Assembly (NCBI GenBank): GCA_951406725.2
Contig: OX597827.1
Location: 72,664,001 to 72,728,000, forward strand
Length of the DNA stretch: 64,000 nucleotides
Direction of reading: 5' to 3'
DNA from: Octopus vulgaris
Lineage: Eukaryota
The position numbers and the translations under genes were made by a program. Below, piece after piece: positions 8,934 through 60,048 of the stretch. The notes beneath the pieces were generated by a model that was given only the letters and a program-made list of their open reading frames with translations, did no database searches and was not told the DNA's origin. Numbering within the stretch: the first letter of the stretch is position 1; every line of letters begins with the position of its first letter.

Positions 8934-8977
<44 letters not shown>

Positions 8978-8982
<5 letters not shown>

Positions 8983-9173
8983 ATCCAAACAAGAAAGCAT
9001 AAAAAAAACACAACAACACGAGGACGTGGAACAAATATAGTATTACTGGACGCTCAGGAAAGAAGGAGGGTTTAACGTTTCAAGCGGAGCTCTTTGTCGG
9101 AAACATAGGAGAAGGAAAGATCCAGAGAAGGGAAGACAGAGGAAAAAAGTCGCCAACGGTACACACGAAGTCA
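8978..9173 (-). mobile_element. Short repeat with decayed minimal hammerhead (9070-9104)
   Basis: Homologous to 39925-40400 and 42005-42155; begins at a (TA)n tract. Confidence 0.65.
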
Positions 9174-13505: not shown

Positions 13506-13804
13506 CACCGTGACCGACCAGGCTATCAGATGTTGCAACACATCGCTGGTCACAATGCGCTTCGCATTGTTTTAGCCTTCAAATGACGCCACCCTGCTGG
13601 CTAAGCGAGCAGGCCAACAGAAGAAAGAGTGAGAGAAAGTTGTGGCAAAAGAGTACAGCAGGGATCGCCACCACCCCCTGCCGGAGCCTCATGGAGCTTT
13701 AGGTGTTTTCGCTCAATAAACACTCACAACGCCCGGTCTGGGAATCGAAACCGCGATCCTACAACCGCGAGTCTGCTGCCCTAACCACTGGGCCATTGCG
13801 CCTC

Positions 13805-13807
<3 letters not shown>
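13506..13807 (-). mobile_element. tRNA-derived SINE (same subfamily as 8526-8829)
   Basis: Near-identical to 8526-8829; flanked by (TA)n. Confidence 0.85.
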
Positions 13808-13847
<40 letters not shown>

Positions 13848-13850
<3 letters not shown>

Positions 13851-15260
13851 TCTCCGGCTTTTCAACTCTTTCTCCTTTCCTCCCGGCTCCTCCAAAATCC
13901 TTTTTACTATGGACATCCAAAGCCTCTATACTGTTATCCCTCACCACGAAGGACTGCAGGCCCTTCGACACTTTCTTGACCTCCGCTCTAACCCTGTACC
14001 TGACACCTCCACACTCATTCGTCTGGCCGAACTTGTCCTTACTCTGAACTGCTTCTCGTTCGCGGGCGAGTTCTACCATCAGGTCTCGGGAGTGGCCATG
14101 GGAACGCGAATGGGCCCCAACTATGCGAACTTGTTCGTTGGCTATGTTGAGGCCCAAATATTCTCTAATTTCACTGGTCCCACTCCTGAACTATATGGTC
14201 GTTATATTGACGACATTATCGGTGCCACCTCACTCTCCCGCGAACATCTAGATTCCTTCCTCTCTTTCGTCCAATCTTTCCATCCAGCCCTCCACTTCAC
14301 TTCCACTATCTCCAACACCTCTGTCTCCTTCCTCGACATTTCGGTTAGCATTCTTCACTCCACTCTTACCACCTCCATTCACTACAAACACACAGACTCA
14401 CACTCATACCTCAACTTCTCTTCCTCCCACCCAGAACACACCAAGCTTTCCATCCCCTATTCCCAATTCCTCCGTCTACGTAGGCTCTGTAGTGACGACC
14501 ATGACTTTGAGACTCAGTCTCAACGTATGGCTCACCACTTCACCCTACGTGGATACCCCCTCACCACTATCCACACCGCCCTTGCCAGAGCACGGTCCGT
14601 GGACCGTGTATCTGCTCTCTCTCCCCGAACCCGCCCTGTAGTCTCCCGCCTCCCTTTTCCCCTCACTTACCACCCCACGAACCTACGTCTCCAACGCACC
14701 ATTCTTCGAGCTTTCCGTCATCTCCAGTCCGACCCGTCCACTTCACACCTGTTCCCTAACCGACCCCTCCCCTCTTTCAAACGAGCCCACAACCTTCGAG
14801 ACCTTTTGGTCCATAGCTCCTTCCCTGACCCTACCTCCCAACCCGGCTCGTTCCCCTGCTCCCGCCCACGTTGCCGCACTTGCCCTTACCTCTCCAACAC
14901 CACCCGCCTCACTAGCACCCACCATCGACCCTATCCCATCATCCACTCCTTCACCTGCACCTCCAGCAATATTATCTATTGCATCTCTTTTGCTCTCTCT
15001 GCAATTCCTTGTACATCGGACAAACGGGACGCCGCTTGGCTGACCGGTTCGCGGAACACCTTCGTGACATCCACCTTGCGAACGACACACCGGTCTCACG
15101 CCATTTCCGCTCCACCGGTCACTCCTTGCAACACCTATCTGTGTTCGGTTTGTCCTTACACAGAGGCCATCCGGATTCCCATTTGCGCCGTGAACAGGAA
15201 TTAATCTTCTCTCTTCGCTCTTATACGCCATTTGGTCTCAACTCTCCCCCCTCCTCATCT
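13848..15260 (+). mobile_element. Penelope-like retroelement, 5'-truncated: reverse transcriptase plus GIY-YIG endonuclease with a frameshift near 14990
   Basis: MDIQSLYT, QVSGVAMG, RYIDD and FLD RT motifs; C-x4-C-x2-C linker; NIIYCIS continues in another frame as CSLCNSLYIGQTGRRLADRFAEH. Confidence 0.93.
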
Positions 15261-15550
15261 AACCTCACCCCCTCCTCACCTATCCTTTCTCCCCCCGACC
15301 CCTACTTCTTCAGTCCTTCATCCTTTCACCCCTACTCCCCTTCCCTTCTTCCCTCTTTCTCCCTCCCTCTTCCCCTTCCCTCTGCTCCCTCACTCCCTCT
15401 CTCCCCTTCTCCCTCTTTCCTCCTTCATCCCCCTCATCCCCTTCCTTCTCCCCCATCCTCTCCTCCCCCTTCTCCTCCCCCTCTTCTTCCCCTCCCCTTC
15501 TCTCCCCCCTCTTCTCCCCTCCCCCTCTTCTCCCCTCCCCCTCTTCTCCT
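15240..15550. repeat. CT-rich low-complexity tract
   Basis: Seen directly. Confidence 0.9.
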
Positions 15551-15767
15551 CACTACACCACATGACTTTACACATCACATCACATATGATGTGCCATACT
15601 AATACACACACCAATACTAATATGGCATTTTTATAAAAATAAGAATAAAGCTGACCGCTTATTAGCTCCATGAGGCCATCGCCTTAAGTTAGCTATTTGA
15701 TACACAAACTGTATCCATATAACCTTTGAACAAGGGAGGTCAGTCGCTCCACACTACTTGGCCGGCA

Positions 15768-18833: not shown

Positions 18834-18952
18834 CGTTTACAGGACTTAGGTTTCCCGAGTGGTCACCTATCTAAGTACTAACTAGGCACGATGTTGCTTA
18901 ACTTTGGTGACCAGACAAGAACCGGTGATCTCAATGTGATATGGCCGTAGTA
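18834..18952 (-). pseudogene. Diverged 5S rRNA copy
   Basis: Minus strand CTACGGCCATATCAC...ACCGGTTCT...AAGTTAAGCAAC...GTTAGTACTT...GTGACC...GGGAA, colinear with eukaryotic 5S and carrying many transitions. Confidence 0.85.
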
Positions 18953-33689: not shown

Positions 33690-33690
<1 letters not shown>

Positions 33691-33812
33691 TTTATTTGAA
33701 GCAGCAGAAAATTCAACAAAACCTGTTACTCTGAGTTTCACGTTCCCGACGAACGGGAACGTGAAACTCAGAGTAACAGGTTTTGTTGAATTTTCTGCTG
33801 CTTTAAATAAAG
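33690..33812. repeat. Near-perfect 123-bp palindrome whose centre interrupts a hammerhead
   Basis: CCGACGA-ACG GGAA CGT-GAAA-CTCAGAG-TA at 33746-33775; deleted derivative at 35095-35175. Confidence 0.85.
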
Positions 33813-33883
33813 CATATTACTCTACCACTGGTATTTGAGTACTCTTTTTTCCACCTTGTTTCACATTTATGTGTTTACTCCGG

Positions 33884-33919
<36 letters not shown>

Positions 33920-34307
33920 CGTGTGTGTGTAAGTGTGTGTGTGTGTGTGTATTTGTGTGTGTTTGCTTTTGTGTCTTTGTTTGTGCCCATCATCGCTTGA
34001 CAACAGGTGTTGGTGTGTTTACATCCCTTAACTTAGCAGTTCAGCAAAAGACACCTATAGAATGAGTATCAGGCTTAAAAAAAAAAAGTTCTGGGGTTGA
34101 TTCATTCAACTAAAAACTTTTTATGGCAGTGCCCTAGCATGGCCACAGTTTAATGATTGAAATAAATTAAGCAAAAAAAAAAAAAATCACTTGTGAATGG
34201 TGGTGATGGTGGTGGTGGGGGGGTGAGTTTCTGTGAACAACAGTGACTGTGATGCAGAAGATTCAGAGATGCTGGTCAAGAAACAATGTAAGATGCCCAC
34301 ATGCCTA

Positions 34308-34534
34308 TACATAAGGGGTGGTGCTGAAGAGTTGGTGGCTTTGGGTAAAAGAAAAGGAGGATCAGTTACTTATGATTTTATTCAGCATATTCCCCTCTCA
34401 GATTCACACACTTATTGCAACAGCCCTCCACCCACACCAGTTTTCCTAAGCCCTGTAAAAAAACTCTGAACGTTTGGGCCCCCAGCCAAGCCATTTGCAA
34501 TACCCTTACAGCCAGGAATTTTTCAGCACCCCTC

Positions 34535-34536
<2 letters not shown>
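34308..34536. mobile_element. Mariner-like MITE remnant
   Basis: Degenerate TIRs aggggtggtgctgaagagtt...aatttttcagcacccctcata. Confidence 0.55.
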
Positions 34537-34572
<36 letters not shown>

Positions 34573-34612
34573 ATGCATGAGTGTGTGTGTGTGTGTGTGT
34601 GCGCGCGCATGA

Positions 34613-34645
<33 letters not shown>

Positions 34646-34649
34646 CATG

Positions 34650-34680
<31 letters not shown>

Positions 34681-35021
34681 ATGAGTGTGTGTGTGCGCAC
34701 ATGAGTGCGTGTGTGCGCACATGAGTGTGTGTGTATATATTAATAATAGAAGGGTAAAATTTATCAATTAAATTAATTAATTAATTAATTAATTAATTAA
34801 TTAATTAATTGATCAATTAATTAACAATTTTATCACATAGATCAGTACATTAAAATAACCTTTACAGGTAAAATTATCCACATAATTATAATTATAAAAT
34901 ATATATGGCGGTGCCCCAGCATGGCCACAGCTCATGAGCTGAAACTAGAATCATTCAATCAATATAATTATACGGAGCTTTTGACTGGTAGCACTTGCAT
35001 GTACAAGTTGTTTGCAAGACA

Positions 35022-35098
<77 letters not shown>

Positions 35099-35317
35099 TA
35101 AAGCAGCAGAAAATTCAACAAAACCTGTTACTCTTTTTTCCACCTTGTTTCACATTTATGTGTTTACTCCGGTGTATATATATATATATGTAATGGATAA
35201 TAAAATGAATGGTTTACACCTGATACCTTACTGGTAAAGCACAGTTACTTTCACAGTGATCGTTATGTATATATGGTAAATGAAGGACAGAAGATGGAAT
35301 ATACGAGAATTTATTAT

Positions 35318-35430
35318 TAATCATGACAATTGTTTTGACACATCTTGCATCGATCCCTCATGGGTGGGGGGCACTCAACAACTGGTTAAGGAGCATTTGG
35401 CAGTGCAGACGTATCTCGTCGGGTGATAAA
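35318..35430 (-). ncRNA. Decayed type I hammerhead with CCGACGA core and long stem II
   Basis: ATCAC-CCGACGA-GATACGTC...GATGTGTC-AAAA-CAATTG-TC-ATGAT (G12 mutated to A). Confidence 0.6.
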
Positions 35431-35691
35431 TAAATACAACTCGTTAAAATAACAGTTCCGCTATGTAATTTCCCGTTTTGCAGAGAGAAAAAGCAGCCAG
35501 ATGGAGGAAATATCTTCATTTATAGAGATGATCAAAAATAAAATCACAGATGGCAAAAAGAGAAATGAACACAAAATCCAGCGAGAAAAGTATTAAAAAT
35601 AACCGTTAACAAATATAAATGTATAAACACTTTTGCTCATACAAGTATCTGCCATGCAGCTTGTATGCATATTTATTTGTATTTCTCTATC

Positions 35692-35731
<40 letters not shown>

Positions 35732-35964
35732 TTAAATACAAACACACACATACATATATGCATAAGTGTATATATATATAATATATATATAAATGTGTGT
35801 GAGGTGGAGTAGTTGTGTGTGTGTGTGTGTGTGTATCATTGGCTGAGAGGAGTACATAGAATATGTCTAAATTGAAACAGTATATGGGCATCAAATTTTA
35901 GAGTAGAGGAAGAAGAGTTTGAGAAAGGATACAACAGAATGATGATGCATTAGTTGCTGATAAA

Positions 35965-36260
35965 GAAGGCATGTGGCCTAGTGGTTAGGGCATTTGGTTC
36001 ATGATTGTAAGGTCATGAGTTCAATTCCCGGTGACGCGTTGTGTCCTTGAGCAAGACACTTTATTTTTCATGTTGCTCCAGTCCACTCAGCTGGCAAAAA
36101 TGAGTTGTACCTGTATTTTAGAGGGCCAGCCTTGTCATGCTGAATCTCCCTTAGAACTATGTTAAAGTTAAACATGTCTGTGGAATGCTCAGCCACTTGC
36201 ATGTTAATTCCATGAGCAAGCTGTTCTGTTGATCGTATCAGCTGGGACCCTCGTCATAGT
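35965..36260 (+). mobile_element. tRNA-derived SINE sharing its 3' tail with 143-330
   Basis: TGGCCTAGTGG...GAGTTCAATTCC head; tail similarity. Confidence 0.8.
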
Positions 36261-37215
36261 AACTGACAGAGTGCTCCTAGTTGCTGATACATGAAAGCAT
36301 AAAGGTAACAAACAGCTTTTACTTGAATGCAATTGTTTTCAGGGTCAAGGGAGGATCTTAACCAAATGAAAGGGTTAAAGGAGGCCACAGGCAGAAAATG
36401 GTTGACAACCACTGATTTGTACCCTAAACACCAGTTCAATAAAAAACAAAATTATTTTATCTTATTTTTTTGCTGTTTTCAAAATTAAGCATATTTCAAT
36501 AAAAATATGGTAATAAAAGGCTTAAAGCAGGAGACAGATGAAGTCCACTACATGAAACCAGAATCAGTACTCCTGAAATGCTACCAAACAGCTTTAGTTT
36601 AATAATATTCACTCACAAGGCTTTAGTTAGTCTGTGGCCTTGGTAGAAGATCCTTAAAGAACCTTAAACCACGCAGTTGTTAAGAGAACTTCTTAACAAC
36701 ACAACCATGGTAGCTTGGATTTAATCTTCAATATCTGTATATCGTTACCATCATCATTGTTTAATGTTTGTTTTCCAGATGGGCATGAGTCGGATGGTTC
36801 TACAGGGACTCACGAGCAAGAGGCATGCTCCAAGCTCCAATGTCGGCTTCAACAGGATTTCTACAGCCGGATGGCCTTCATAACGTCATCCACTTCACCG
36901 AGGGAAGTTGGTGCTTGGTCATGATGCTAATACTTGTAACTCAAGTAACTTACAAAACAAGATCCCAAAATTACTGCCCCACACTCACCTAAGTGGGGAT
37001 GTAGTACTGAGGGTGGTTAAAAAGTATGACAGAGAGACAAGAGCAGGTATCTTGCTGATGGTGAGATACATGGCTATCCCAGATGGAAAGAGGGAGAGAG
37101 ATGGTGTTGCAGGTACAAAAAGCTTAGCAATGATTCACGAGGGGGGAATCACATGATAGCTTGTACTGAGATTTTATTAGTTGTTTTAAATATGACCTAA
37201 AGGATGTGACATCTG

Positions 37216-37254
37216 AGAAGAGAGAGAGCGAGAGAGAGGGAGAGAGAGAATAAG

Positions 37255-37300
<46 letters not shown>

Positions 37301-37594
37301 ATGGGGAGAGAGATAGAGAGAGAGAGAATGGGGAGAGAGCTAGAGAGAAAGAGAGAGAGAGAATAGGGAGAGAGAAAGAGAAACAGAGAGAATGGGGAGA
37401 GAGATAGAGAGAGAGAATAGGGAGAGAGAGAGAGAGAAAATGGGGAGAGAGAGAATGAAGAGAGGGAAGAGGAGAGGGGAGAGAGGAGAGGGGAGAGAGA
37501 AGGAGGTGAGAGAGAAAGAGAGGGGAGGAAGAGAGAGAGAGAAAGAGGAGGGAGAAAAAGAGGAGAGGGGGAGGAAGGGAGAAAGAGAGAGAGA
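37216..37594. repeat. GA-rich microsatellite / low complexity
   Basis: Seen directly. Confidence 0.95.
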
Positions 37595-38114
37595 TGTCCC
37601 AGTGTTTGCAGCTGGATGAACGGGCGCAGTGTGAAATGAAATATTTTGACCAAGGACACAACACCACCACCTGATCCAGGAATTGAACTCATAACTCAGT
37701 GATGAGACCAACACTCCAACCAGTGGATCCTATGCCTCCATGCAGATCTGCAGCCTTCAATTTGCAAGTTGTGTCTAGTTGTCCGGTGAAGGCAAAGCCG
37801 TTTGCATCGCTTTATAATTGGGACGATTTTAATTATGGCTGCGGACAACGAAGCAAAGCCTTTGTGATGCTGCTTTTGCTGTTGGCAGCAGCAGCAGTAC
37901 CATGTGGAATATGAGTGGTCAGCACGAAGTATTAACAGGGATTTTAGAGTGACGAGTTCAAGTGTTTAGACTCTGCATGTGTGTTTACTCTATATTTAAT
38001 TTGGTAATGTTTGTGTCTCGGATTTCAGATGTTCTCTTTATGGAGTGTTTGAAGGCCTGGCAGGATGTGTTGATTGTGGCTTCTAATTAGGATATGAGCA
38101 GAGTGTGGTATGGC

Positions 38115-38180
<66 letters not shown>

Positions 38181-39924
38181 GACAGACAGAGAAAGTGTGT
38201 ATGTGTTTAGAAATGACAGTGATTGTTGGCTGTTTTTCATTTCTCTCCAAGTCAGTTCTCCTTTGGCAATCCTAAGATTAAAGGCATTCCAGTTATGACC
38301 ATCTCAACATTTTTTATTTTTAGATACAGGGTAATCTAGGGCAACATTCTTCAGTTAGAGCACAATTAGAGGAAGATATTTGGTGGCTGCTTCTAGCATG
38401 TTGAGTGACCATATACAGGCTCCCTTGGCTTATAACAGTCATTGTCGTTTTTGATTTTGGTGGGATTTGAACTCAAAATGTAAAAGGTTGCAATAATACA
38501 AGATATTTTTTCTGAAGCACTAATGATTTTTCTAATTATCATCATCAACATTCAATACCTGTTTTCAATGCTGGGCATGGGTTGGACGGGTTGACAGGAA
38601 CTGGCAAAGACAGGGGTTGCACCACGTTCCATAGCCTATTTTGGGATGGTTTCTACAGCTGGATACCCTTCTTAATTAATGCCAACCATTTTACAAAGTG
38701 TACTGGGGGCTTACATGGCACCGTCACCAGTGCTTATATGTAACACTATTACCAATACTTTTTATGTGGCACCAGCAATAGTGCTTTTTATGTGGCCTTA
38801 ATAATAATAATATTAATAATAATAATAACAATAATAACTTCTAACATTGGCACAAGGCCAGCAGTTTTAACCCTTTAGCATTCAGATTACTCTGTTGAAT
38901 GTAATGCAAATTTATTCACAATATTTTGAATTAGTCATACATTATCTCATACCTTCGAAATTTCAAGGGTTGGTGTGAGAAGCCAGGTCTAGGTAAATTG
39001 ACAGCCAGTTTAAATGCTTAAAGGATCAAGGGATTAGAGTCAGCTGACACTATCAACCCCAGTACTTGACTCATACTTTATTTTATCAACTCCAAAGAGA
39101 TAAAAGGTGAGGTTGACTTCTGCAGGATTAGAACTCTCAATATAAAGAGACAGAAGAAATTTTGCAATATTTTCTGATGCTCTACAGATTCTGCCAGCTC
39201 GTCCTCTTCTTAAAAGCTGATGGTGTGTCATGACAATTTTAGTGCCTTATTCAGTATGTTAAGTTCCATAATCAATGAGTTACATTGGATGTGCGCCCTA
39301 CTTTTCTAAGACAGTGGAGTGTGAATAAAGAGAGATTTGGTTGCTATTTCCTAAGAGGTCAAGCAACTGTGTAGGACTCTTCTCTTGTAAGGGTCATGTT
39401 TGTTGGGGATAAAACACATATATATATGTGTGCCAGCTCTGTCTGGCACCTGTGCGGGTGGCACGTAAAAAGCACCCACTACACACACGGAGTGGTTGGC
39501 GTTAGGAAGGGCATCCAGCCGTAGAAACACTGCCAGATCTGACTGGGCCTGATGAAGCCTTCCGGCTTCACAGACCCCAGTTGAACCGTCCAACTCATGC
39601 TAGCATGGAAAACGGACGCTAAATGATGATGATGATGATGATGTTTCTTTATCTTGGTGGGGGGTAAATGAATGCATGTAGAAGGATCTCGAGTGCCCAC
39701 AGTTTCAGGGTGAGGTGATCTTGGGAGAGTTCTAGTCATTATCAGTTTGTGGAACTGCCTTTATATACAGGGTGTGTAAGATATTTGAGGAGAGATTTTT
39801 GTTTATAAAAAAGCAGATATATAATAACGGATAATAATATTATTTATCAAAAAATGCTTTGAGGATAAAAATAAACCTTCTTTTCTATAATGTTATTCAA
39901 TAAAGCCACCTATATATATATATA

Positions 39925-40400
39925 TAAAGTTAATCCAAACAAGAAAATAAAAAAGACAACAACGTGAGGAGGTGGAACAATTAAAGTATTATTAGGCGCT
40001 CAGGAAAAAAGGGAAGAAGGAGGGTATGACATTTCGAGCGGAGCTCTTCGTCAGAAACATAGGAGAAAGAAAGATCCCGAGGTGGGAGGACAGAGGGAAA
40101 AAAAATGCAAGTGGTCTTCACAAGGTCAACATATATATATATATATATAAAGTTAATCCAAACATGAAAACACAAGAGAAAACACAACAACGCAAGGATG
40201 TGGAACAAATATAGAATTATTGGATGCTCAGGAAGGAAGGGAAGAAGGAGGGTTTTATGTTTCGAGTGGAGCTCTTCATCAGAAACATAGGAAAAGGAAA
40301 GATCCAGAGAAGGGAAGAAGGAGGAAAAAAAAAAAATTGCCAATGGTACACACGCGGTCACAGAAGAAAACAACAATGCGAGGACATGGTCCATGCAAAG
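39925..40400 (-). mobile_element. Two tandem copies of the minimal-hammerhead repeat (HHRs 40024-40058 and 40252-40286)
   Basis: GTTT-CTGACGA-AGAGCTCCGCTC-GAAA-TG-TC and GTTT-CTGATGA-AGAGCTCCACTC-GAAA-CA-TA; each copy abuts (TA)n. Confidence 0.7.
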
Positions 40401-40641
40401 TTGCAAAATGTTAAAGGATGCTCAAGGAAGGAAAGAACGATTGCTTAATGTTTTGAGAAACAGGAGACAAAGGAAAGTCCAAGAGAAAAGGGAAATGGAG
40501 GAAAACAATTGCCAACAATCCACATGTAGTTACAATTTGAAATGACCAGAAGGGAATGGACAAAGAAAAAGTTCTTTCTAAGACAGGCGAGTATAAGAGA
40601 AGGAGAAATCTGTGTGTATGTATGGGTATGTGCAAGTGTAT

Positions 40642-40679
<38 letters not shown>

Positions 40680-40773
40680 TATTAACTGTTTATATGTGTT
40701 TATGTGAGTGATCTTTGTGTTTGTTAATGTTGTAGGAAATATTCAGCAGCGCTATGATAGCAGAAGTGATGGT

Positions 40774-40821
<48 letters not shown>

Positions 40822-40823
<2 letters not shown>

Positions 40824-41250
40824 GACCTTACTCTAATAGCTGAGTCACTGCCAGAATTAGAGAGGAAGTTTAGGGTGTGGAAGCAAGGTCTAGAATTGAA
40901 GGGCCTTAGGGTTAACCTAGCAAAAACCAAAGTCTTAGTAAGTAGGAGGGCTGTCAAATCACAAACCACTTCAGGGAGATGGCCCTGCTCAATCTATGGA
41001 AAAGGCATGGGTAGAAACTCCATACGATATACCCGGTGTAAGCTATGAACACATAAGTGGTGCAGCAATATCAAATGAAGAATAACTGGGAAGACAGTTT
41101 TTGTGTGTGGCAAATGCACAGGGACAATAAACACTGAAGATGTACAGAAAACAGATTCCATCACATATCAGGGGGAAAAAACTTAGTAGTTGATAGCTTC
41201 TGTTACCTAGGTGACCAAGTCAGTAACAGGGGTGGATGCTCTGAGAACAT
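40822..41250 (+). mobile_element. Degenerate RTE-like RT fragment
   Basis: Homologous to the 10126-10862 ORF (..VDSF.YLGDQVS..GGC); contains stops. Confidence 0.75.
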
Positions 41251-41932
41251 CATAAGCCAAATATACTAACCACTAAGCTATGTGCCTTCACAATATACAT
41301 TCTTTTCTACTCTAGGCACAAGGCCCGAAATTTTTGGGGAGGGGGCCAGTCAATTAGATCGAACCCAGTATGCAACGGGTACTTAATTTATCAACCCCGA
41401 AACGATGAAAGGCAAAGTCGACCTCAGTGGAATTTGAACTCAGACAGACAAAATATCGCTAAGCATTACACCCAGTGTGCTAACGTTTCTGCCAGTGCAA
41501 CGCCTTCTTCACAATATATATTACTTAATGCATGACAAGAGAACAGAAGCCACATAATGACCTTCGTTATCTGAGCTAATGAAGGTGGTAACGTGACTCA
41601 TCTCCTCTTCCATTCATAAATTTTTATTAAACTGTGTTCTTGCCAAATGTCTGTCATGTTAATTAGAAAACAATTACTAGTTTCAAATAACTTTTAAATC
41701 AACTTAATTTAAATTAATTATGTGTCACAATTATATACTTATACATTTAATGTTGCTTATCTTAATTTAACGAAACAGATTTGGAACACAATTAATGTGC
41801 AAAGTTTATACTTTTATCCTTTTATTGAAAATAATTGCACGCATGTACACACACAGATATTTGCTTACACACACACATACAGATACATACACATAGATGT
41901 GTATATATATGTGAATATATACATACATACCA

Positions 41933-42005
<73 letters not shown>

Positions 42006-42112
42006 AAGTTAATCCAAACAAGAAAACACAGAAAAAAAGAGAAAAAAACACAGCAACGCAGGACGTGGAACAATTAAAGTATTATTGACGCTCAGGAAAG
42101 AAAGGAAGGAGG

Positions 42113-42147
42113 GTTTAACGTTTCGAGCGGAGCTCTTCGTCGGAAAC
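42113..42147 (-). ncRNA. Minimal type I hammerhead with CCGACGA core
   Basis: GTTT-CCGACGA-A-GAGC TCC GCTC-GAAA-CG-TT|AAAC. Confidence 0.7.
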
Positions 42148-42491
42148 AAGGAGAATGGTTGGCATATATACATTTATACATAAGGCGGCGAGCTGGCAGA
42201 AACGTTAGCATGCCGGGCGAAATGTGTAGCCGTATTTCGTCTGCCGTTACGTTCGGAGTTCAAATTCCGCCGAGGTCGAATTTGCCTTTCATCCTTTCGG
42301 GGTCGATAAATAAAGTACCAGTTATGCACTGGGGTCGATGTAATCGACTTCATCCGTTTGTCTGTCCTTGTTTGTCCCCTCTGTGTTTAGCCCCTTGTGG
42401 GTAGTAAAGAAATATATACATTTATACATAAATACACACACATGTACATATACATGCATATATATAGATTGACAGATATATATATATATAT

Positions 42492-45400
42492 ATAACATAA
42501 GGGACTAAAGCCATCTGAATATGGCTAGGGACAGGGCAGGGTGGTGGGGGTGTTACTGTTGCATTTAGCCCCAGGCGAACATCGACGTCACCAGAAAGGC
42601 CCGACACCGTCACGGTGTCCTTAACCTGCAAAGGGAGGTAATTCCCCGATGAAGCGGAAACCACACACGGACCATGGTTTCAAGGTGTATTGCCTATCGT
42701 CGGCGTGTGGTAGGCTTCCGCTCCCTCGACGAATCCTCACTCTGCAGGATATTCATATATAGATTTTCAAGCAAAATACATTTGCTGATTTCGAAAATCT
42801 GTTCGAAAGCAATAATAATTCTCTAAAAGAGATATAGACAGTAACTGCTCGATAACATAAGGGACTAAAGCCATCTGAATATGGCTAGGGACAGGGCAGG
42901 GTGGTGGGGGTGTTACTGTTGCATTTAGCCCCAGGCGAACATCGACGTCACCAGAAAGGCCCGACACCGTCACGGTGTCCTTAACCTGCAAAGGGAGGTA
43001 ATTCCCCGATGAAGCGGAAACCACACACGGACCATGGTTTCAAGGTGTATTGCCTATCGTCGGCGTGTGGTAGGCTTCCGCTCCCTCGACGAATCCTCAC
43101 TCTGCAGGATATTCATATATAGATTTTCAAGCAAAATACATTTGCTGATTTCGAAAATCTGTTCGAAAGCAATAATAATTCTCTAAAAGAGATATAGACA
43201 GTAACTGCTCGATAACATAAGGGACTAAAGCCATCTGAATATGGCTAGGGACAGGGCAGGGTGGTGGGGGTGTTACTGTTGCATTTAGCCCCAGGCGAAC
43301 ATCGACGTCACCAGAAAGGCCCGACACCGTCACGGTGTCCTTAACCTGCAAAGGGAGGTAATTCCCCGATGAAGCGGAAACCACACACGGACCATGGTTT
43401 CAAGGTGTATTGCCTATCGTCGGCGTGTGGTAGGCTTCCGCTCCCTCGACGAATCCTCACTCTGCAGGATATTCATATATAGATTTTCAAGCAAAATACA
43501 TTTGCTGATTTCGAAAATCTGTTCGAAAGCAATAATAATTCTCTAAAAGAGATATAGACAGTAACTGCTCGATAACATAAGGGACTAAAGCCATCTGAAT
43601 ATGGCTAGGGACAGGGCAGGGTGGTGGGGGTGTTACTGTTGCATTTAGCCCCAGGCGAACATCGACGTCACCAGAAAGGCCCGACACCGTCACGGTGTCC
43701 TTAACCTGCAAAGGGAGGTAATTCCCCGATGAAGCGGAAACCACACACGGACCATGGTTTCAAGGTGTATTGCCTATCGTCGGCGTGTGGTAGGCTTCCG
43801 CTCCTCGACGAATCCTCACTCTGCAGGATATTCATATATAGATTTTCAAGCAAAATACATTTGCTGATTTCGAAAATCTGTTCGAAAGCAATAATAATTC
43901 TCTAAAAGAGATATAGACAGTAACTGCTCGATAACATAAGGGACTAAAGCCATCTGAATATGGCTAGGGACAGGGCAGGGTGGTGGGGGTGTTACTGTTG
44001 CATTTAGCCCCAGGCGAACATCGACGTCACCAGAAAGGCCCGACACCGTCACGGTGTCCTTAACCTGCAAAGGGAGGTAATTCCTCGATGAAGCGGAAAC
44101 CACACACGGACCATGGTTTCAAGGTGTATTGCCTATCGTCGGCGTGTGGTAGGCTTCCGCTCCCTCGACGAATTCTCACTCTGCAGGATATTCATATATA
44201 GATTTTCAAGCAAAATACATTTGCTGATTTCGAAAATCTGTTCGAAAGCAATAATAATTCTCTAAAAGAGATATAGACAGTAACTGCTCGATAACATAAG
44301 GGACTAAAGCCATCTGAATATGGCTAGGGACAGGGCAGGGTGGTGGGGGTGTTACTGTTGCATTTAGCCCCAGGCGAACATCGACGTCACCAGAAAGGCT
44401 CGACACCGTCACGGTGTCCTTAACCTGCAAAGGGAGGTAATTCCCCGATGAAGCGGAAACCACACACGGACCATGGTTTCAAGGTGTATTGCCTATCGTC
44501 GGCGTGTGGTAGGCTTCCGCTTCCTCGACGAATTCTCACTCTGCAGGATATTCATATATAGATTTTCAAGCAAAATACATTTGCTGATTTCGAAAATCTG
44601 TTCGAAAGCAATAATAATTCTCTAAAAGAGATATAGACAGTAACTGCTCGATAACATAAGGGACTAAAGCCATCTGAATATGGCTAGGGACAGGGCAGGG
44701 TGGTGGGGGTGTTACTGTTGCATTTAGCCCCAGGCGAACATCGACGTCACCAGAAAGGCTCGACACCGTCACGGTGTCCTTATCCTGCAAAGGGAGGTAA
44801 TTCCCCGATGAAGCGGAAACCACACACGGACCATGGTTTCAAGGTGTATTGCCTATCGTCGGCGTGTGGTAGGCTTCCGCTTCCTCGACGAATTCTCACT
44901 CTGCAGGATATTCATATATAGATTTTCAAGCAAAATACATTTGCTGATTTCGAAAATCTGTTCGAAAGCAATAATAATTCTCTAAAAGAGATATAGACAG
45001 TAACTGCTCGATAACATAAGGGACTAAAGCCATCTGAATATGGCTAGGGACAGGGCAGGGTGGTGGGGGTGTTACTGTTGCATTTAGCCCCAGGCGAACA
45101 TCGACGTCACCAGAAAGGCTCGACACCGTCACGGTGTCCTTATCCTGCAAAGGGAGGTAATTCCCCGATGAAGCGGAAACCACACACGGACCATGGTTTC
45201 AAGGTGTATTGCCTATCGTCGGCGTGTGGTAGGCTTCCGCTTCCTCGACGAATTCTCACTCTGCAGGATATTCATATATAGATTTTCAAGCAAAATACAT
45301 TTGCTGATTTCGAAAATCTGTTCGAAAGCAATAATAATTCTCTAAAAGAGATATAGACAGTAACTGCTCGATAACATAAGGGACTAAAGCCATCTGAATA

Positions 45401-46382
45401 TGGCTAGGGACAGGGCAGGGTGGTGGGGGTGTTACTGTTGCATTTAGCCCCAGGCGAACATCGACGTCACCAGAAAGGCCCGACACCGTCACGGTGTCCT
45501 TAACCTGCAAAGGGAGGTAATTCCCCGATGAAGCGGAAACCACACACGGACCATGGTTTCAAGGTGTATTGCCTATCGTCGGCGTGTGGTAGGCTTCCGC
45601 TTCCTCGACGAATTCTCACTCTGCAGGATATTCATATATAGATTTTCAAGCAAAATACATTTGCTGATTTCGAAAATCTGTTCGAAAGCAATAATAATTC
45701 TCTAAAAGAGATATAGACAGTAACTGCTCGATAACATAAGGGACTAAAGCCATCTGAATATGGCTAGGGACAGGGCAGGGTGGTGGGGGTGTTACTGTTG
45801 CATTTAGCCCCAGGCGAACATCGACGTCACCAGAAAGGCCCGACACCGTCACGGTGTCCTTAACCTGCAAAGGGAGGTAATTCCCCGATGAAGCGGAAAC
45901 CACACACGGACCATGGTTTCAAGGTGTATTGCCTATCGTCGGCGTGTGGTAGGCTTCCGCTTCCTCGACGAATCCTCACTCTGCAGGATATTCATATATA
46001 GATTTTCAAGCAAAATACATTTGCTGATTTCGAAAATCTGTTCGAAAGCAATAATAATTCTCTAAAAGAGATATAGACAGTAACTGCTCGATAACATAAG
46101 GGACTAAAGCCATCTGAATATGGCTAGGGACAGGGCAGGGTGGTGGGGGTGTTACTGTTGCATTTAGCCCCAGGCGAACATCGACGTCACCAGAAAGGCT
46201 CGACACCGTCACGGTGTCCTTATCCTGCAAAGGGAGGTAATTCCCCGATGAAGCGGAAACCACACACGGACCATGGTTTCAAGGTGTATTGCCTATCGTC
46301 GGCGTGTGGTAGGCTTCCGCTCCCTCGACGAATCCTCACTCTGCAGGATATTCATATATAGATTTTCAAGCAAAATACATTT
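42492..46382 (-). repeat. Tandem array of ~10.8 x 360-bp near-identical units, each with a predicted hammerhead (retrozyme-like)
   Basis: Units start at 42492, 42852, 43212, 43572, 43931 ... 46091; first HHR at 42664-42709 (minus). Confidence 0.95.
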
Positions 46383-46385
46383 TTC

Positions 46386-46747
46386 CTTTCGAACAGATTT
46401 TCGAAATCAGCAAATGTATTTTGCTTGAAAATCTATATATGAATATCCTGCAGAGTGAGGATTCGTCGAGGGAGCGGAAGCCTACCACACGCCGACGATA
46501 GGCAATACACCTTGAAACCATGGTCCGTGTGTGGTTTCCGCTTCATCGAGGAATTACCTCCCTTTGCAGGTCAAGGACACCGTGACGGTGTCGGGCCTTT
46601 CTGGTGACGTCGATGTTCGCCTGGGGCTAAATGCAACAGTAACACCCCCACCACCCTGCCCTGTCCCTAGCCATATTCAGATGGCTTTAGTCCCTTATGT
46701 TATCGAGCAGTTACTGTCTATATCTCTTTTAGAGAATTATTATTGCT
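46386..46747 (+). repeat. One complete inverted copy of the 360-bp unit
   Basis: Reverse complement of the array unit; followed by (TA)n. Confidence 0.95.
46486..46531 (+). ncRNA. Type I hammerhead of the 360-bp unit (representative copy)
   Basis: CACACG-CCGACGA-TAGGCAATACACCTT-GAAA-CCATGG-TC|CGTGTG. Confidence 0.78.
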
Positions 46748-47165: not shown

Positions 47166-47917
47166 ATATATATATATATATGACAGATAGTTGCATACAT
47201 ACATATATACATATTTTTTTAACATTCAATTTCTATACTTGTGATTGGTTGGAAGGTGTTTTCTTGAGACAGATTATCTATGGCTGGATGATCTTGCTCT
47301 CGTCACTCTTCACCTGTTTTCGTGAAAGGTAATATTTTCCTCATGACCAGATATTTTCTGAAGGAAGACTGCAAATGAAGGACACTGAATTCATAATGCT
47401 GGTGTGAAGGCGTAGTCATAGGTGCAGACGTGGCTGTGTGGTAAGAAGCTTACTTCCGAACCACATGGTTCTGGGTTCAGTCCCACTGAATGGCACTTTG
47501 GGCTACCAAATTCTCTCACAAGGCTTTGGTAGATGGAAACTAAAAGATGTTGTGTGTGTGTGTGTGTGTGCATATGGATGTGTGTGTGTGTGTATGTGTA
47601 GGAGCATGTGTGTGTGTATAAGCATGTGTGTGTGTGTGTGTATTATGTGCACGTGTGTGTCTGTATCTCTGTGTTTGTCCCCTAAATCCACCATGTGACA
47701 ACCAGTGCTAATGCAACTACATCCTTGTAACTTAGCGGTCCAGCAAAAGAGACTGACAGAATAAGCACCAGGTTTAAAGAAACAAAAATAAGCACTGGGG
47801 TCGATATGTTTGACTGGAAATTCTTCAAGGCTGTGCTCCAGCATGGCCACAATCTAAATACTGAAACAAGTTAAAGATAAAAAAAAAACTATCAGTCGAT
47901 GACAAGTGAAATTGACT

Positions 47918-47951
<34 letters not shown>

Positions 47952-48211
47952 TTTTGCCTAAAGTCACCATCTTGTCCCCTATTCTCCTCTTCAGATGTAG
48001 GGGCTTTTTAGTCATGTACATTACAATGCATTCATGCTGGTGTCACAGAGTAAAGGAAAGGCATCCAGAACACCTTACAAAATGGTTGTTGTTAGGAAGG
48101 GCATTCAGAGGTAGAAAGCATGCAACTTTGGAGTGCAATGTGGTCCCTTGCCCTGTTGGATTGTGTAAAACTCTTCCAACCCATGCCAGCAAGGAAAGTG
48201 GATATGATGAA

Positions 48212-48249
<38 letters not shown>

Positions 48250-49005
48250 AATGGTTTCTCTCTCTCTTTCTTTCTCTCTCTCTCTTTCTGTAAAATCACT
48301 GAAAGAGATTATAAAACTATTTCTCTCTTTCTATGAGAACACAGAGCTGAATGGGCAGTGAAAGTGGGCCAAAAGCACAAAAGACACACAAAAAGGAAAG
48401 AAAAAAAACTAACAACAACAACAACAATTACAACAATAGCAACAACAACAACAACAAACTAGATAGTAAAAATAAAAATATAAACATAAAAACTTCAAAA
48501 TGTGTGTGTGCGGGTCTGTGTGCATATATATGCGTATGCTTGTGTGTAATAATGCATGTGTGTTTGTGTGTGCGTGTATTTATGGTTGTATTTATATATG
48601 CATGAATGCATTATTTATATATATTTATGTGAGTGTATATATGTGTAGTTATGCATATTTTCTGATGGGACAAACTGGAATTTCCTTTATCCTGTTTGAA
48701 TACTTGTAACCTTCACCTAGCACAGATCCAACAGTTGCCCTTAAGAAGTTTGTTTGGCAAAACCTTATAATACTCCGTAACCTTATAATCCATTCTTCCA
48801 TGACCAACCCTCCATAACCTTTTAAGAGTTATTAGGTAAATATAGGCGCAGGAGTGGCTGTGTGGTAAGTAGCTTGCTTAGCAACCACATGGTTCCGGGT
48901 TCAGTCCCACTGCATGGCACCTTGGGCAAGTGTCTTCTACTATAGCCTTGTGAGTGGATTTGGCAGACAGAAACTGAGAGAAGCCTGTCGTATATATATA
49001 TATAC

Positions 49006-49065
<60 letters not shown>

Positions 49066-52000
49066 TTGTGCTTGTCCCCCCACCATCGCTTGACAACCGA
49101 GGCTGGTGTGTTTACATCCCCGTAACTTAGCAGTTTGGCAAAAGAGACCAATAGAATAAGTACTAGGCTTACAAAGATTGAGTCCTGGGGTTGATTTGTT
49201 TGACTAAAGGCGGTGCCCCAGCATGGCCACAGTCAAATGACTGAAACAAATAAAAGAGTATATATAATATATGTAATGTAAGGCTGTGAGTTGGCAGAAT
49301 AATAAGCATACTTAGCATAAAAACTTAAAAGTATTTCCTCCAAGTTGTTTGGAGGCTGTGATTGAAGCCAATGGCTATTTTATTGAATAAATTCACTGTT
49401 TAGTATTTCAAGATATTTTTATGTAATTTTGGTAAATATATCTGATAAAATGAGATGTTAGTGTTATTTTCATTTTTGCGTAATTTAGATAATATATCCA
49501 CCACGCCCTGCATGTGTATTATATATGTAATGTATATATAATAAATAAATATAATATATATGTGTGTGTGTGTAATAATTAAATCATATATTATGCATTT
49601 TATTGTGTTTTGTTATGCATATGATCCCCTGTTCCATGGGAAAACTGTCTTGACTGAAACCAGTCTGTGATACAAAAATGTCTGGAGACCACTAACGTAA
49701 GGCATAAATAAAAGCCCATATGATGTTCAGGTTTTCTGTTGTAGTAAATTTATCATAAGCTAAGAGATACAAACTACACTTTTTAAGCTTGAAATATATC
49801 TTTCCGAAATTAGAAGTCACTTTATAAGGTGGGAATAGAATGTAAACCATAACCACAAAGAGATAATCAAGAAAAATTGGGCTCCGGGTGATTGAGGTGT
49901 ACTTCTTGTTGTAACTCCAGCAAGTTACCACAAATAATTTCAAATAGAAGTGGAAATTAGTGAATCTATTTAATATATTGGAATTTGTAGTTTTGTGGTA
50001 CCAGTGCCGGTGGCACATACGAAAACCATCCGAACGTGGCCGTAGCCAGTACCGCATTGACTGGCCTCCGTGCCGGTGGCACGTAAAAAACACCATCCGA
50101 GCGTGGCCGTTCACCAGCCTCGTCTGGCACCTGTGTCGGTGGCACATAAAATCACCCACTACACTCTCGGAGTGGTTGGCGTTAGGAAGGGCATCCAGCT
50201 GTAGAAACACTGCCAGATCTGACTGGCCTGGTGCAGCCTTCGGGCTTCCCAGACCCCAGTTGAACCGTCCAACCCATGCTAGCATGGAAAGCGGACGTTA
50301 AACGATGATGATGATGATGATGAACATACAGATTACCAGTGACATGTAATAATGATTTAAAAAATTGTTTACCTGGCGGGAGATTATATTTTTTGTGTCG
50401 AAACATGGCCTGGAATCTAGGGTTTTAGATCTAATTTAGCAGAAACCAAAGTCCTAGTAAGTGGGAAAACAGAAAAATCACAAGTCCCTTCTCGGAGATG
50501 GCCCTACTTGATATGTAAAAAGGGTGTCTGTAGAAACTCCATATGTTGTATCCAGTGAAAGCGTTGGTGTAGTGGTATCAGATGAAGGTTAACGGAGAAT
50601 ATAGTGTTGTGTGTTGCAAATGCATTAAAATGGGAAAAAATTATGGTATTTTTTTTTTAAATCGTAGACTCATCATAGACGCGCGCTAATACCCAGAAGG
50701 GCTCGATATGAATCATGACTATAAGATACCCACTTTTGGTTACACTGCACCGCAAAATGTGGGAGTAGTTAGGAATCTAAATCATTGGGAGACAGACACA
50801 CAACTTCACTTTTATATATATATATATATGACAGATAGTTGCATACATACATATATACATATTTTTTTAACATTCAATTTCTATACTTGTGATTGGTTGG
50901 AAGGTGTTTTCTTGAGACAGATCATCTATGGCTGGATGATCTTGCTCTCGTCACTCTTCACCTGTTTTCGTGAAAGGTAATATTTTCCTCATGACCAGAT
51001 ATTTTCTGAAGGAAGACTGCAAATGAAGGACACTGAATTCATAATGCTGGTGTGAAGGCGTAGTCATAGGTGCAGACGTGGCTGTGTGGTAAGAAGCTTA
51101 CTTCCGAACCACATGGTTCTGGGTTCAGTCCCACTGAATGGCACTTTGGGCTACCAAATTCTCTCACAAGGCTTTGGTAGATGGAAACTATGTGTGTGTG
51201 TGTGTGTGTGCATATGGATGTGTGTGTGTGTATGTGTAGGAGCATGTGTGTGTGTATAAGCATGTGTGTGTGTGTGTGTATTATGTGCACGTGTGTGTCT
51301 GTATCTCTGTGTTTGTCCCCTAAATCCACCATGTGACAACCAGTGCTAATGCAACTACATCCTTGTAACTTAGCGGTCCAGCAAAAGAGACTGACAGAAT
51401 AAGCACCAGGTTTAAAGAAACAAAAATAAGCACTGGGGTCGATATGTTTGACTGGAAATTCTTCAAGGCTGTGCTCCAGCATGGCCACAATCTAAATACT
51501 GAAACAAGTTAAAGATAAAAAAAAAAACTATCAGTCGATGACAAGTGAAATTGACTGTAACACACACACACACACACACACACGCTTTTTGCCTAAAGTC
51601 ACCATCTTGTCCCCTATTCTCCTCTTCAGATGTAGGGGCTTTTTAGTCATGTACATTACAATGCATTCATGCTGGTGTCACAGAGTAAAGGAAAGGCATC
51701 CAGAACACCTTACAAAATGGTTGTTGTTAGGAAGGGCATTCAGAGGTAGAAAGCATGCAACTTTGGAGTGCAATGTGGTCCCTTGCCCTGTTGGATTGTG
51801 TAAAACTCTTCCAACCCATGCCAGCAAGGAAAGTGGATATGATGAAATGATGATGATGATGATGATGATGATAATGGTTTCTCTCTCTCTTTCTTTCTCT
51901 CTCTCTCTTTCTGTAAAATTACTGAAAGAGATTATAAAACTATTTCTCTCTTTCTATGAGAACACAGAGCTGAATGGGCAGTGGAAAGTGGGCCAAAAGC

Positions 52001-52664
52001 ACAAAAGACACACAAAAAGGAAAAAAAAAAACTAACAACAACAACAATTACAACAATAGCAACAATAACAACAACAACAACAACAACAAACTAGATAGTA
52101 AAAATAAAAATATAAACATAAAAACTTCAAAATGTGTGTGTGCGGGTCTGTGTGCATATATATGCGTATGCTTGTGTGTAATAATGCATGTGTGTTTGTG
52201 TGTGTGTGTATTTATGGTTGTATTTATATATGCATGAATGCATTATTTATATATATTTATGTGAGTGTATATATGTGTAGTTATGCATATTTTCTGATGG
52301 GACAAACTGGAATTTCCTTTATCCTGTTTGAATACTTGTAACCTTCACCTAGCACAGATCCAACAGTTGCCCTTAAGAAGTTTGTTTGGCAAAACCTTAT
52401 AATACTCCGTAACCTTATAATCCATTCTTCCATGACCAACCCTCCATAACCTTTTAAGAGTTATTAGGTAAATATAGGCGCAGGAGTGGCTGTGTGGTAA
52501 GTAGCTTGCTTAGCAACCACATGGTTCCGGGTTCAGTCCCACTGCATGGCACCTTGGGCAAGTGTCTTCTACTATAGCCTTGGGCCGACCAAAGCCTTGT
52601 GAGTGGATTTGGCAGACAGAAACTGAGAGAAGCCTGTCGTATATATATATATACATATATATAT

Positions 52665-52713
<49 letters not shown>

Positions 52714-55700: not shown

Positions 55701-56320
55701 ATTACAACAATAGCAACAATAACAACAACAACAACAACAACAAACTAGATAGTAAAAATAAAAATATAAACATAAAAACTTCAAAATGTGTGTGTGCGGG
55801 TCTGTGTGCATATATATGCGTATGCTTGTGTGTAATAATGCATGTGTGTTTGTGTGTGTGTGTATTTATGGTTGTATTTATATATGCATGAATGCATTAT
55901 TTATATATATTTATGTGAGTGTATATATGTGTAGTTATGCATATTTTCTGATGGGACAAACTGGAATTTCCTTTATCCTGTTTGAATACTTGTAACCTTC
56001 ACCTAGCACAGATCCAACAGTTGCCCTTAAGAAGTTTGTTTGGCAAAACCTTATAATACTCCGTAACCTTATAATCCATTCTTCCATGACCAACCCTCCA
56101 TAACCTTTTAAGAGTTATTAGGTAAATATAGGCGCAGGAGTGGCTGTGTGGTAAGTAGCTTGCTTAGCAACCACATGGTTCCGGGTTCAGTCCCACTGCA
56201 TGGCACCTTGGGCAAGTGTCTTCTACTATAGCCTTGGGCCGACCAAAGCCTTGTGAGTGGATTTGGCAGACAGAAACTGAGAGAAGCCTGTCGTATATAT
56301 ATATATACATATATATATAT

Positions 56321-56374
<54 letters not shown>

Positions 56375-58869: not shown

Positions 58870-58903
<34 letters not shown>

Positions 58904-59974
58904 TTTTGCCTAAAGTCACCATCTTGTCCCCTATTCTCCTCTTCAGATGTAGGGGCTTTTTAGTCATGTACATTACAATGCATTCATGCTGGTGTCACAG
59001 AGTAAAGGAAAGGCATCCAGAACACCTTACAAAATGGTTGTTGTTAGGAAGGGCATTCAGAGGTAGAAAGCATGCAACTTTGGAGTGCAATGTGGTCCCT
59101 TGCCCTGTTGGATTGTGTAAAACTCTTCCAACCCATGCCAGCAAGGAAAGTGGATATGATGAAATGATGATGATGATGATGATGATGATAATGGTTTCTC
59201 TCTCTCTTTCTTTCTCTCTCTCTCTTTCTGTAAAATTACTGAAAGAGATTATAAAACTATTTCTCTCTTTCTATGAGAACACAGAGCTGAATGGGCAGTG
59301 GAAGTGGGCCAAAAGCACAAAAGACACACAAAAAGGAAAAAAAAAAACTAACAACAACAACAATTACAACAATAGCAACAATAACAACAACAACAACAAC
59401 AACAAACTAGATAGTAAAAATAAAAATATAAACATAAAAACTTCAAAATGTGTGTGTGCGGGTCTGTGTGCATATATATGCGTATGCTTGTGTGTAATAA
59501 TGCATGTGTGTTTGTGTGTGTGTGTGTATTTATGGTTGTATTTATATATGCATGAATGCATTATTTATATATATTTATGTGAGTGTATATATGTGTAGTT
59601 ATGCATATTTTCTGATGGGACAAACTGGAATTTCCTTTATCCTGTTTGAATACTTGTAACCTTCACCTAGCACAGATCCAACAGTTGCCCTTAAGAAGTT
59701 TGTTTGGCAAAACCTTATAATACTCCGTAACCTTATAATCCATTCTTCCATGACCAACCCTCCATAACCTTTTAAGAGTTATTAGGTAAATATAGGCGCA
59801 GGAGTGGCTGTGTGGTAAGTAGCTTGCTTAGCAACCACATGGTTCCGGGTTCAGTCCCACTGCATGGCACCTTGGGCAAGTGTCTTCTACTATAGCCTTG
59901 GGCCGACCAAAGCCTTGTGAGTGGATTTGGCAGACAGAAACTGAGAGAAGCCTGTCGTATATATATATATATAC

Positions 59975-60048
<74 letters not shown>

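What the first reader, a model, noticed from the sequence alone, without database searches (positions are those of the whole stretch)
33746..46531. The non-canonical CCGACGA (U4C) hammerhead core recurs in four unrelated repeat families
Seen: CCGACGA replaces CUGANGA in the 360-bp array, the minimal HHR at 42113-42147, the palindrome at 33746 and the long-stem-II HHR at 35318-35430. These families otherwise share no sequence. More degraded copies of one family read CTGACGA (40024) and CTGATGA (40252). Established: U4 is normally strongly conserved in the uridine turn. Inference: C4 is a lineage-typical functional or attenuated variant, and the canonical-looking copies may be CpG-decay products. 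Motif searches that require CUGANGA would miss these elements.
Basis: partly seen in the sequence, partly recalled or inferred. Interest (0 to 1): 0.8.

Follow-up and report, generated by a model that had tools for sequence, protein, structure and literature searches.

The report
Off-consensus hammerheads in Penelope retroposons
Several families of jumping genes in this animal genome have spread by the hundreds to thousands while carrying a self-cutting RNA (hammerhead) with a change at a position that is normally fixed, which suggests that these ribozymes are weakened or helped by the element's protein rather than broken by decay.

Summary
CCGACGA sits in a full type I hammerhead (HHR) frame in four Penelope-like (PLE) repeat families. 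C4 is their majority state genome-wide: 99/100, 72/100, 89/100 and 58/75 listed copies.

Two parts of the interpretation need correcting. First, C4 is not lineage-typical: a 4,841-copy control family is 95/100 U4, and 21 of 44 census motifs are canonical. Second, CpG decay explains T4 in families C and D but not B. In B, CTGACGA (3,033) far outnumbers the mirror product CCAACGA (228), and T4 copies form their own subfamilies. Families A, B and F have U4 sister lineages, so U4-to-C probably arose repeatedly.

A young autonomous PLE whose 3' end is homologous to B (15,782 matches) instead carries A6U, with N7 free. Both changes hit the uridine turn; the other core bases and the stems persist.

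Best reading: weakened or protein-assisted HHRs, tolerated or favoured because insertion copies uncleaved RNA. Cleavage was not measured. U4C is already known from one viroid variant, and some searches already allow CYGANGA.

The parts
42492..46382 (-). Family A: 10.8 tandem 360-bp units (non-LTR retrozyme-type, PLE-derived), one C4 type I HHR per unit; short 3' end against (TA)n at 42492
42661..42710 (-). First HHR of the array: core 42697-42703, stem II with U10.1-U11.1 mismatch 42682-42696, GAAA 42678-42681, palindromic stem III 42672-42677, predicted GUC cut between 42670 and 42669; stem I continues as a long rod (z = -7.3)
46383..46747 (+). Inverted, 5'-truncated family A unit (core 46492-46498) ending 44 nt beyond the other end: the PLE 'tail'
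42005..42155 (-). Family B young C4 copy; minimal HHR 42113-42147, core 42137-42143; homologous to the 3' end of an autonomous PLE
39920..40096 (-). Family B copy with T4 (40048-40054); nearest relatives are C4 copies, so probably CpG decay
40143..40325 (-). Family B copy with T4 (40276-40282) from a genuine U4 subfamily; its T7 is probably decay
8970..9143 (-). Further family B copy, C4, with G8A decay
33690..33895 (+). Family C inverted insertion (the palindrome); C4 core 33746-33752, stems II and III intact, 5' strand of stem I lost at the fold-back; short end left, 73-nt tail right
35094..35184 (.). Second, deleted family C insertion without the HHR core, beside family D
35278..35616 (-). 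Family D copy; long-stem-II HHR 35318-35430, C4 core 35416-35422, G12A in this copy
13720..15602 (+). Truncated, frameshifted copy of the young autonomous RT + GIY-YIG PLE whose 3' HHR (absent from this copy, present in L241 and L242) has the A6U core

Best explanation
These are type I, short-stem-III hammerheads of non-autonomous Penelope-like retroposons. SHOWN: each family ends at fixed points against (TA)n with a PLE tail, family B is homologous to the 3' end of a young autonomous PLE, and C4 was already present in the master copies that amplified. INFERRED: U4 was ancestral and changed to C several times (A, B, F; C and D have no U4 sister found). INFERRED mechanism: the HHR lies between the body of the RNA and the reverse-transcription start about 40-220 nt downstream, so a fast cut would sever the template. 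Masters whose uridine turn is weakened (U4C, or A6U in the autonomous element) therefore lose nothing or gain. The rest of the core and the stems are kept for slow cleavage as a dimer or with help from the PLE protein.
For: C4 majority: A 99/100 listed of 1,234, in 31 loci; B 72/100 flank-anchored of 8,286; C 89/100 of 2,387; D 58/75. U4 sisters: A' 17/17 T4 against A 83/83 C4; B subfamilies, 3 label changes on a tree with positions 4-5 masked against 24.8 shuffled, 0/500; in F the subfamily with a CC-starting loop is 17/17 T4 while the family is 60/100 C4. B's outgroups have U4. Selection on the RNA fold: 4 pairs of the stem I extension changed on both sides between A and A', stem III stays a palindrome with different letters, and one stem I pair is G-C in B and C-G in the PLE. 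No other core change is amplified in B: G5A 7, T7 4, G8A 4, G12A 3 per 100, the same range as non-core CpGs. Autonomous PLE: position 6 is T in 96/100 while N7 takes all four bases. Tails: A ends at two positions in 13 of 15 ends; C ends at 72 in 16 and at 144-145 in 11 of 30. Copies span the cut site: 11,754 exact B cores, and only 3 of 33 nearby truncations start at +1/+2. Literature passages: U4C lowers activity in vitro but supports a viroid in vivo (PMC3088659); a PLE HHR cleaves only with its protein and cleavage is not needed for insertion in vitro (PMC11167929).
Against: No cleavage or expression was measured. Many families amplify with a canonical core (E 95/100 U4; 21 of 44 census motifs), so weakening is not required. 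The B tree is not reliably rooted, and subfamily ages overlap: U4 subfamilies 6.8% and 3.4% from their own consensus, C4 subfamilies 1.7-7.7%. Covariation counts rest on two or three lineages, not many independent events. Copies that span the cut site could also come from religated circles. In a mutational scan of a type III HHR, uridine-turn mutants other than the C3-G8 swap had low activity (PMC9901934), so these cores may be nearly dead.
Confidence: 0.55

Rival explanations
1. The C4 and U6 motifs no longer cleave. The three-way fold is kept only as a binding or positioning signal for the PLE reverse transcriptase.
For: HHR catalytic mutants did not affect insertion in vitro (PMC11167929). 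No sharp truncation peak at the cut site. Two different uridine-turn changes in one PLE lineage.
Against: C3, G5, G8, A9, G12-A15.1 and U16.1 stay fixed across A/A' and B/PLE while flanks are rewritten, and N7 and H17 vary as in active HHRs. A pure binding site need not follow the catalytic pattern.
Confidence: 0.2
2. C4 is close to neutral in this setting: protein help or dimer contacts restore full activity, and T-to-C is fixed by drift or GC-biased conversion in master copies.
For: C7, a free position, also accompanies C4 in B, C, D and part of A. The A unit is richer in CpG than A' (o/e 0.90 against 0.66). U4 and C4 subfamilies coexist in B and F.
Against: F has C4 with U7. The C4 lineage of B lacks a CpG that many U4 copies carry upstream. 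A4 and G4 never amplify (0-2 per 100), and A6U is not a GC gain.
Confidence: 0.18
3. C4 is selected at the DNA level, for example as a promoter or CpG element in the pseudo-LTR that raises transcription of master copies.
For: PLE pseudo-LTRs hold promoters (review PMC6765202), and CCGACGA carries two CpGs.
Against: The motif lies in different sequence contexts in five families and always in HHR register. The autonomous element changes position 6 instead.
Confidence: 0.05
4. C4 is edited to U in the RNA, switching the ribozyme on.
Against: Edited templates would insert as T4 copies inside C4 subfamilies above the decay level, whereas T4 matches its mirror or T7 level in C and D and is 1/100 in A. 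Edited RNA that is cut would not be seen in this test. The A6U core cannot be repaired this way.
Confidence: 0.02

Closest known systems
Minimal and short-stem-III type I HHRs in PLE pseudo-LTRs (Cervera and De la Pena 2014, PMC4209133)
   Same: Type I topology, palindromic or absent stem III, extra base between 9 and 10.1, dispersed and inverted copies, low activity expected; the U3-A8 core variant reported there also occurs here.
   Different: In the parts read and in supplement file 2, no C4 or U6 core and no octopus entry appeared (file 1 was not searchable). Here those cores are the amplified state.
Non-LTR retrozymes (PMC7229834; bioRxiv 10.64898/2026.07.22.740005)
   Same: Family A is a tandem ~360-bp unit with one type I HHR each, derived from a PLE-type element.
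   Different: C4 core with U10.1-U11.1; arrays carry the PLE inversion and a 44-nt tail; circular RNA not shown.
U4C viroid hammerhead variant (Ambros and Flores 1998, seen only as cited in PMC3088659)
   Same: Same substitution; lower activity in vitro, enough in vivo.
   Different: There a rare variant of an RNA replicon; here thousands of genomic copies in at least five families.
Anolis Poseidon PLE HHR (PMC11167929)
   Same: HHR near the RT initiation sites that make the tail; cleavage needs the protein and is dispensable for insertion in vitro.
   Different: No uridine-turn variant appeared in the passages read. The autonomous element here has the CX4CxxC linker before GIY-YIG described for Neptune/Nematis.

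Membership tests
Hammerhead ribozyme, type I | Three stems around the core, open at stem I | tested here: met
   reversed controls 0. Window copy at 33746 lacks one strand of stem I.
Hammerhead ribozyme, type I | Core CUGANGA | tested here: not met
   C4 in A-D and most of F; U6 in the autonomous PLE
Hammerhead ribozyme, type I | G12 A13 A14 A15.1 and U16.1 H17 | tested here: met
   the window's D copy has G12A
Hammerhead ribozyme, type I | Stems supported by compensatory change | tested here: met
   few independent lineages; C and D not tested across lineages
Hammerhead ribozyme, type I | Match to an Rfam hammerhead model | tested here: not met
   no hammerhead family among 87 matches at E<=1; the canonical-core HHR at 17624 was missed too, so this test is insensitive here
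Hammerhead ribozyme, type I | Site-specific self-cleavage | not testable with these tools
   indirect only: no sharp 5'-truncation peak at the site, 3 of 33
Penelope-like element (non-autonomous derivative) | Fixed 3' ends with a tail, inverted 5'-truncated partner, (TA)n target | tested here: met
   A and C; B ends at (TA)n; tail not examined in B or D
Penelope-like element (non-autonomous derivative) | Homology to the pseudo-LTR of an RT + GIY-YIG element | tested here: inconclusive
   met for B (72% over 83 nt, E 3e-6); no autonomous partner found for A, C or D within 1.5 kb flanks
Non-LTR retrozyme | Tandem non-coding units of a few hundred bp, each with a type I HHR | tested here: met
   family A
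Non-LTR retrozyme | Accumulates as circular RNA | not testable with these tools
   no reads were laid

The most novel reading that the evidence does not exclude
In this genome PLE hammerheads have repeatedly and independently given up the uridine turn (U4C at least three times, A6U in the currently young autonomous element) under selection against cutting their own template. They keep the other core bases and are switched on only by the element's protein, which stands in for the turn. That would be a natural, replicated shift from a self-sufficient ribozyme to a protein-gated one, with matched U4/C4 sister pairs ready for test.
Probability: 0.25. Interest if true: 0.75.

Novelty: new variant of a known kind. 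Interest (0 to 1): 0.5.

Why it matters
Why PLEs carry hammerheads is unresolved (PMC8557442 and PMC11167929 say so in the passages read). This genome offers natural sister pairs that differ at a normally fixed core base (A/A', B-U4/B-C4, F-U4/F-C4) and a young autonomous element with another uridine-turn change. Cleavage rate can therefore be set directly against amplification success. Strict CUGANGA searches would miss about half of the HHR-like motifs sampled here (23 of 44), including the 15,782-copy A6U family, which CYGANGA descriptors also miss.

Tried and rejected
CpG decay as the general origin of T4: rejected for B, accepted for C and D.

A fifth C4 family suggested by locus L126: rejected, the family is 95/100 U4.

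An antisense HHR at the CCGATGA on the + strand of each array unit: no room for stem II and not called by the scan; it is the other arm of the long stem I.

Position 4 pairing with 16.3 in an inactive rod: it covaries in A/A' but cannot pair in B, C, D or F, so not general. Monomer folds bury part of the core in U4 and C4 forms alike.

Genomic footprint of cleavage: 3 of 33 TA-joined truncations at +1/+2, 4 upstream, the rest spread downstream. No sharp peak; the upstream deficit is unexplained.

Rooting the B tree: outgroup too distant. Autonomous partners for A, C and D: none found.

Expression: no RNA holder listed on record and no reads were laid, so nothing is claimed.

Earlier scan findings: 0 in three look-ups.

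Lunse et al. 2017 (PMC5785218) and Ambros and Flores 1998 (PMC147498) were not held. The first may already list such cores.
Full report
SETTING. The window is G000:C14:72664001-72728000, in a 2.80-Gb genome of 227 contigs. Its repeat content looks like an octopus to me; that is recall, and no call names the organism. I call the four families A (360-bp array), B (minimal HHR at 42113), C (palindrome at 33746) and D (long stem II at 35318). Counts 'of 100' are my hand counts of the first 100 rows that a genome search listed, in position order from contig C1, not random draws. Exact-match patterns favour young copies.

OBSERVATION. A stem-aware scan called the 12 array cores and the B core. Reversed-sequence controls gave no calls. 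Two window copies are damaged. At 33746 the inversion cut through the ribozyme, while family C elsewhere has a stem I of four pairs, a mismatch and further pairs, a 3-bp stem II, and a GUA site. The D copy has G12A, while most family copies read GAAAC. BLAST among representatives showed only low-complexity matches between A, B, C and D. Rfam has no hammerhead hit here, but it also missed the canonical-core HHR at 17624.

C4 IS THE AMPLIFIED STATE. With positions 4 and 7 left open, A gave 1,234 matches and 99/100 C4 over 31 loci, with both C7 and T7 amplified. B gave 11,754 matches with 74 C4, 24 T4 and 2 A4; a search anchored only on the flanks gave 8,286 matches with 72 C4, 27 T4 and 1 A4. 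C gave 97/100 C4 of 616 with a tight pattern and 89/100 of 2,387 with a looser one. D gave 58 C4, 16 T4 and 1 G4 of all 75.

IS T4 DECAY? Deamination of a CpG gives TG and CA about equally (established knowledge). In D the 4-5 dinucleotide is TG in 14 and CA in 10 of 75, and in C T4 (11) matches T7 (14): decay. In B the exact counts are 3,033 T4 against 228 mirror copies. I aligned 30 T4, 40 C4 and 10 mirror copies. Nine columns outside the searched 26-mer separate T4 from C4 copies at p<1e-3, and mirror copies side mostly with C4. On a tree with positions 4-5 masked the T4 label needs 3 changes against 24.8 in shuffles (0/500). So most T4 copies of B were inserted as U4.

DIRECTION AND RECURRENCE. 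A has a sister, A', about 352 bp long and alignable over the unit; 17/17 listed A' cores are CTGATGA and 83/83 A cores are C4. Between them four pairs of the long stem I changed on both sides, and stem III stayed palindromic with other letters. B's outgroups have U4. A fifth family, F (1,828 matches), is 60 C4, 38 T4 and 2 A4, and its subfamily with a CC-starting loop is 17/17 T4. I infer that U4 is ancestral and C4 arose at least three times. Against a simple story, the B root is unresolved and ages overlap: U4 subfamilies lie 6.8% and 3.4% from their consensus, C4 ones 1.9, 4.0, 7.7 and 1.7% (n = 15, 11, 20, 7, 5, 4, that is 62 of 80 rows).

NOT LINEAGE-WIDE. Family E (4,841 matches) is 95/100 U4. 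A census of the window and all loci then held, leaving out each locus's target family and the window's A-D, found 44 motifs: 21 canonical, 9 A6U, 6 U3-A8, 6 U4C, 1 A6G, 1 G5A. In 400 kb taken at fixed positions alone the split was 8, 4, 4 and 4 of 20. A loose genome-wide pattern gave 37,162 matches against 16,521 in its control.

WHAT THE ELEMENTS ARE. Family A insertions end against (TA)n or similar at two fixed points 44 nt apart (13 of 15 ends), and C at points 73 nt apart (27 of 30). This fits the PLE tail and inverted partner described in PMC8557442 and PMC11167929. The window holds a truncated RT + GIY-YIG element (13720-15602). Its 105 best-scoring relatives, of 20,172 candidates, are 98-99% identical, with open frames up to about 1,200 codons. 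A full copy encodes 1,072 residues with a CX4CxxC linker before GIY-YIG, as described for Neptune/Nematis. Its 3' end is homologous to B (72% over 83 nt, E 3e-6) and holds the same minimal HHR about 100 nt before the end, but with core CUGUNGA. Of 15,782 matches, position 6 is T in 96/100, position 4 is T in 97/100, and N7 takes all four bases. No partner was found for A, C or D.

MECHANISM. Shown: the HHR lies upstream of the fixed 3' ends, and thousands of copies run through the predicted cut site. Only 3 of 33 nearby TA-joined truncations start at it. In B no other core change rises above decay level. From literature: U4 contacts the A6-N7 phosphate (PMC3088659 section 8); uridine-turn mutants are weak in a type III HHR (PMC9901934); U4C is weak in vitro yet supports a viroid; a PLE HHR cuts only with its protein and is dispensable for insertion in vitro. 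That A6 accepts a hydrogen bond from the U4 ribose is my recall. Inferred: fast cutting of a 3' HHR would destroy the template, so weakening is tolerated or favoured. The kept core pattern, with N7 and H17 free, argues that some cleavage still matters, probably as a dimer or protein-assisted. I put this at 0.55, a dead ribozyme kept as a binding site at 0.2, neutrality at 0.18, a DNA-level role at 0.05 and editing at 0.02.

WHAT IS KNOWN. PLE minimal HHRs, their dimers, low activity and the U3-A8 variant are published (PMC4209133: parts 1-2 of 4 read, supplement file 2 searched, file 1 not searchable). Retrozymes as PLE derivatives are published (bioRxiv 10.64898/2026.07.22.740005: part 1 of 5 and passages, supplements closed; PMC7229834 and PMC6765202: passages). 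U4C is known from a viroid, and CYGANGA descriptors exist (PMC13481778 passages). PMC8557442, PMC11167929, PMC9901934 and PMC8490949 were seen as passages only. Eight searches showed no report of amplified C4 or U6 cores in PLEs, or of HHR families in octopus. Lunse et al. 2017 and Ambros and Flores 1998 were not available, so prior description is not excluded.

VERDICT. A real feature and a new variant of a known kind. The added finding is recurrence beside U4 sisters, plus an A6U core in the young autonomous element. Activity is unmeasured. Interest 0.5.

Noticed in passing
window 15700-16487: Tandem and inverted repeat family with an HHR whose core is the U3-A8 covariant (15796-15802 on -, 16284-16290 on +); also seen in L146, and other U3-A8 families in L099, L148, L174, L180.
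   Followed up: partly
L241:1455-1595 and L242:5575-5720: 3' end of a young autonomous PLE with an A6U hammerhead core, 15,782 exact matches, N7 free.
   Followed up: yes
window 17614-17705: Canonical CTGATGA HHR with a long stem II and palindromic stem III; a relative in L004.
   Followed up: partly
G000:C1:4739422 and C1:6756085: Two related HHR-like motifs with both C4 and G6 and a palindromic stem III; possibly another core variant family.
   Followed up: no
window 18834-18952 (-): 5S rRNA-like sequence above the Rfam gathering score (61.7 bits), with several broken pairs; likely a pseudogene or SINE head.
   Followed up: no
window about 47300-61300: Near-identical segment of about 3.65 kb repeated roughly four times in tandem.
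   Followed up: no
window 4645-8019: 147-bp satellite array with higher-order periods.
   Followed up: no
window 10126-10932 (-): Open frame resembling the C-terminal part of an RTE-type LINE reverse transcriptase (family name from recall); a related fragment lies near 40830-41240.
   Followed up: no
family B: TA-joined 5' truncations are much rarer just upstream of the predicted cut site (4 of 33) than just downstream; unexplained.
   Followed up: partly
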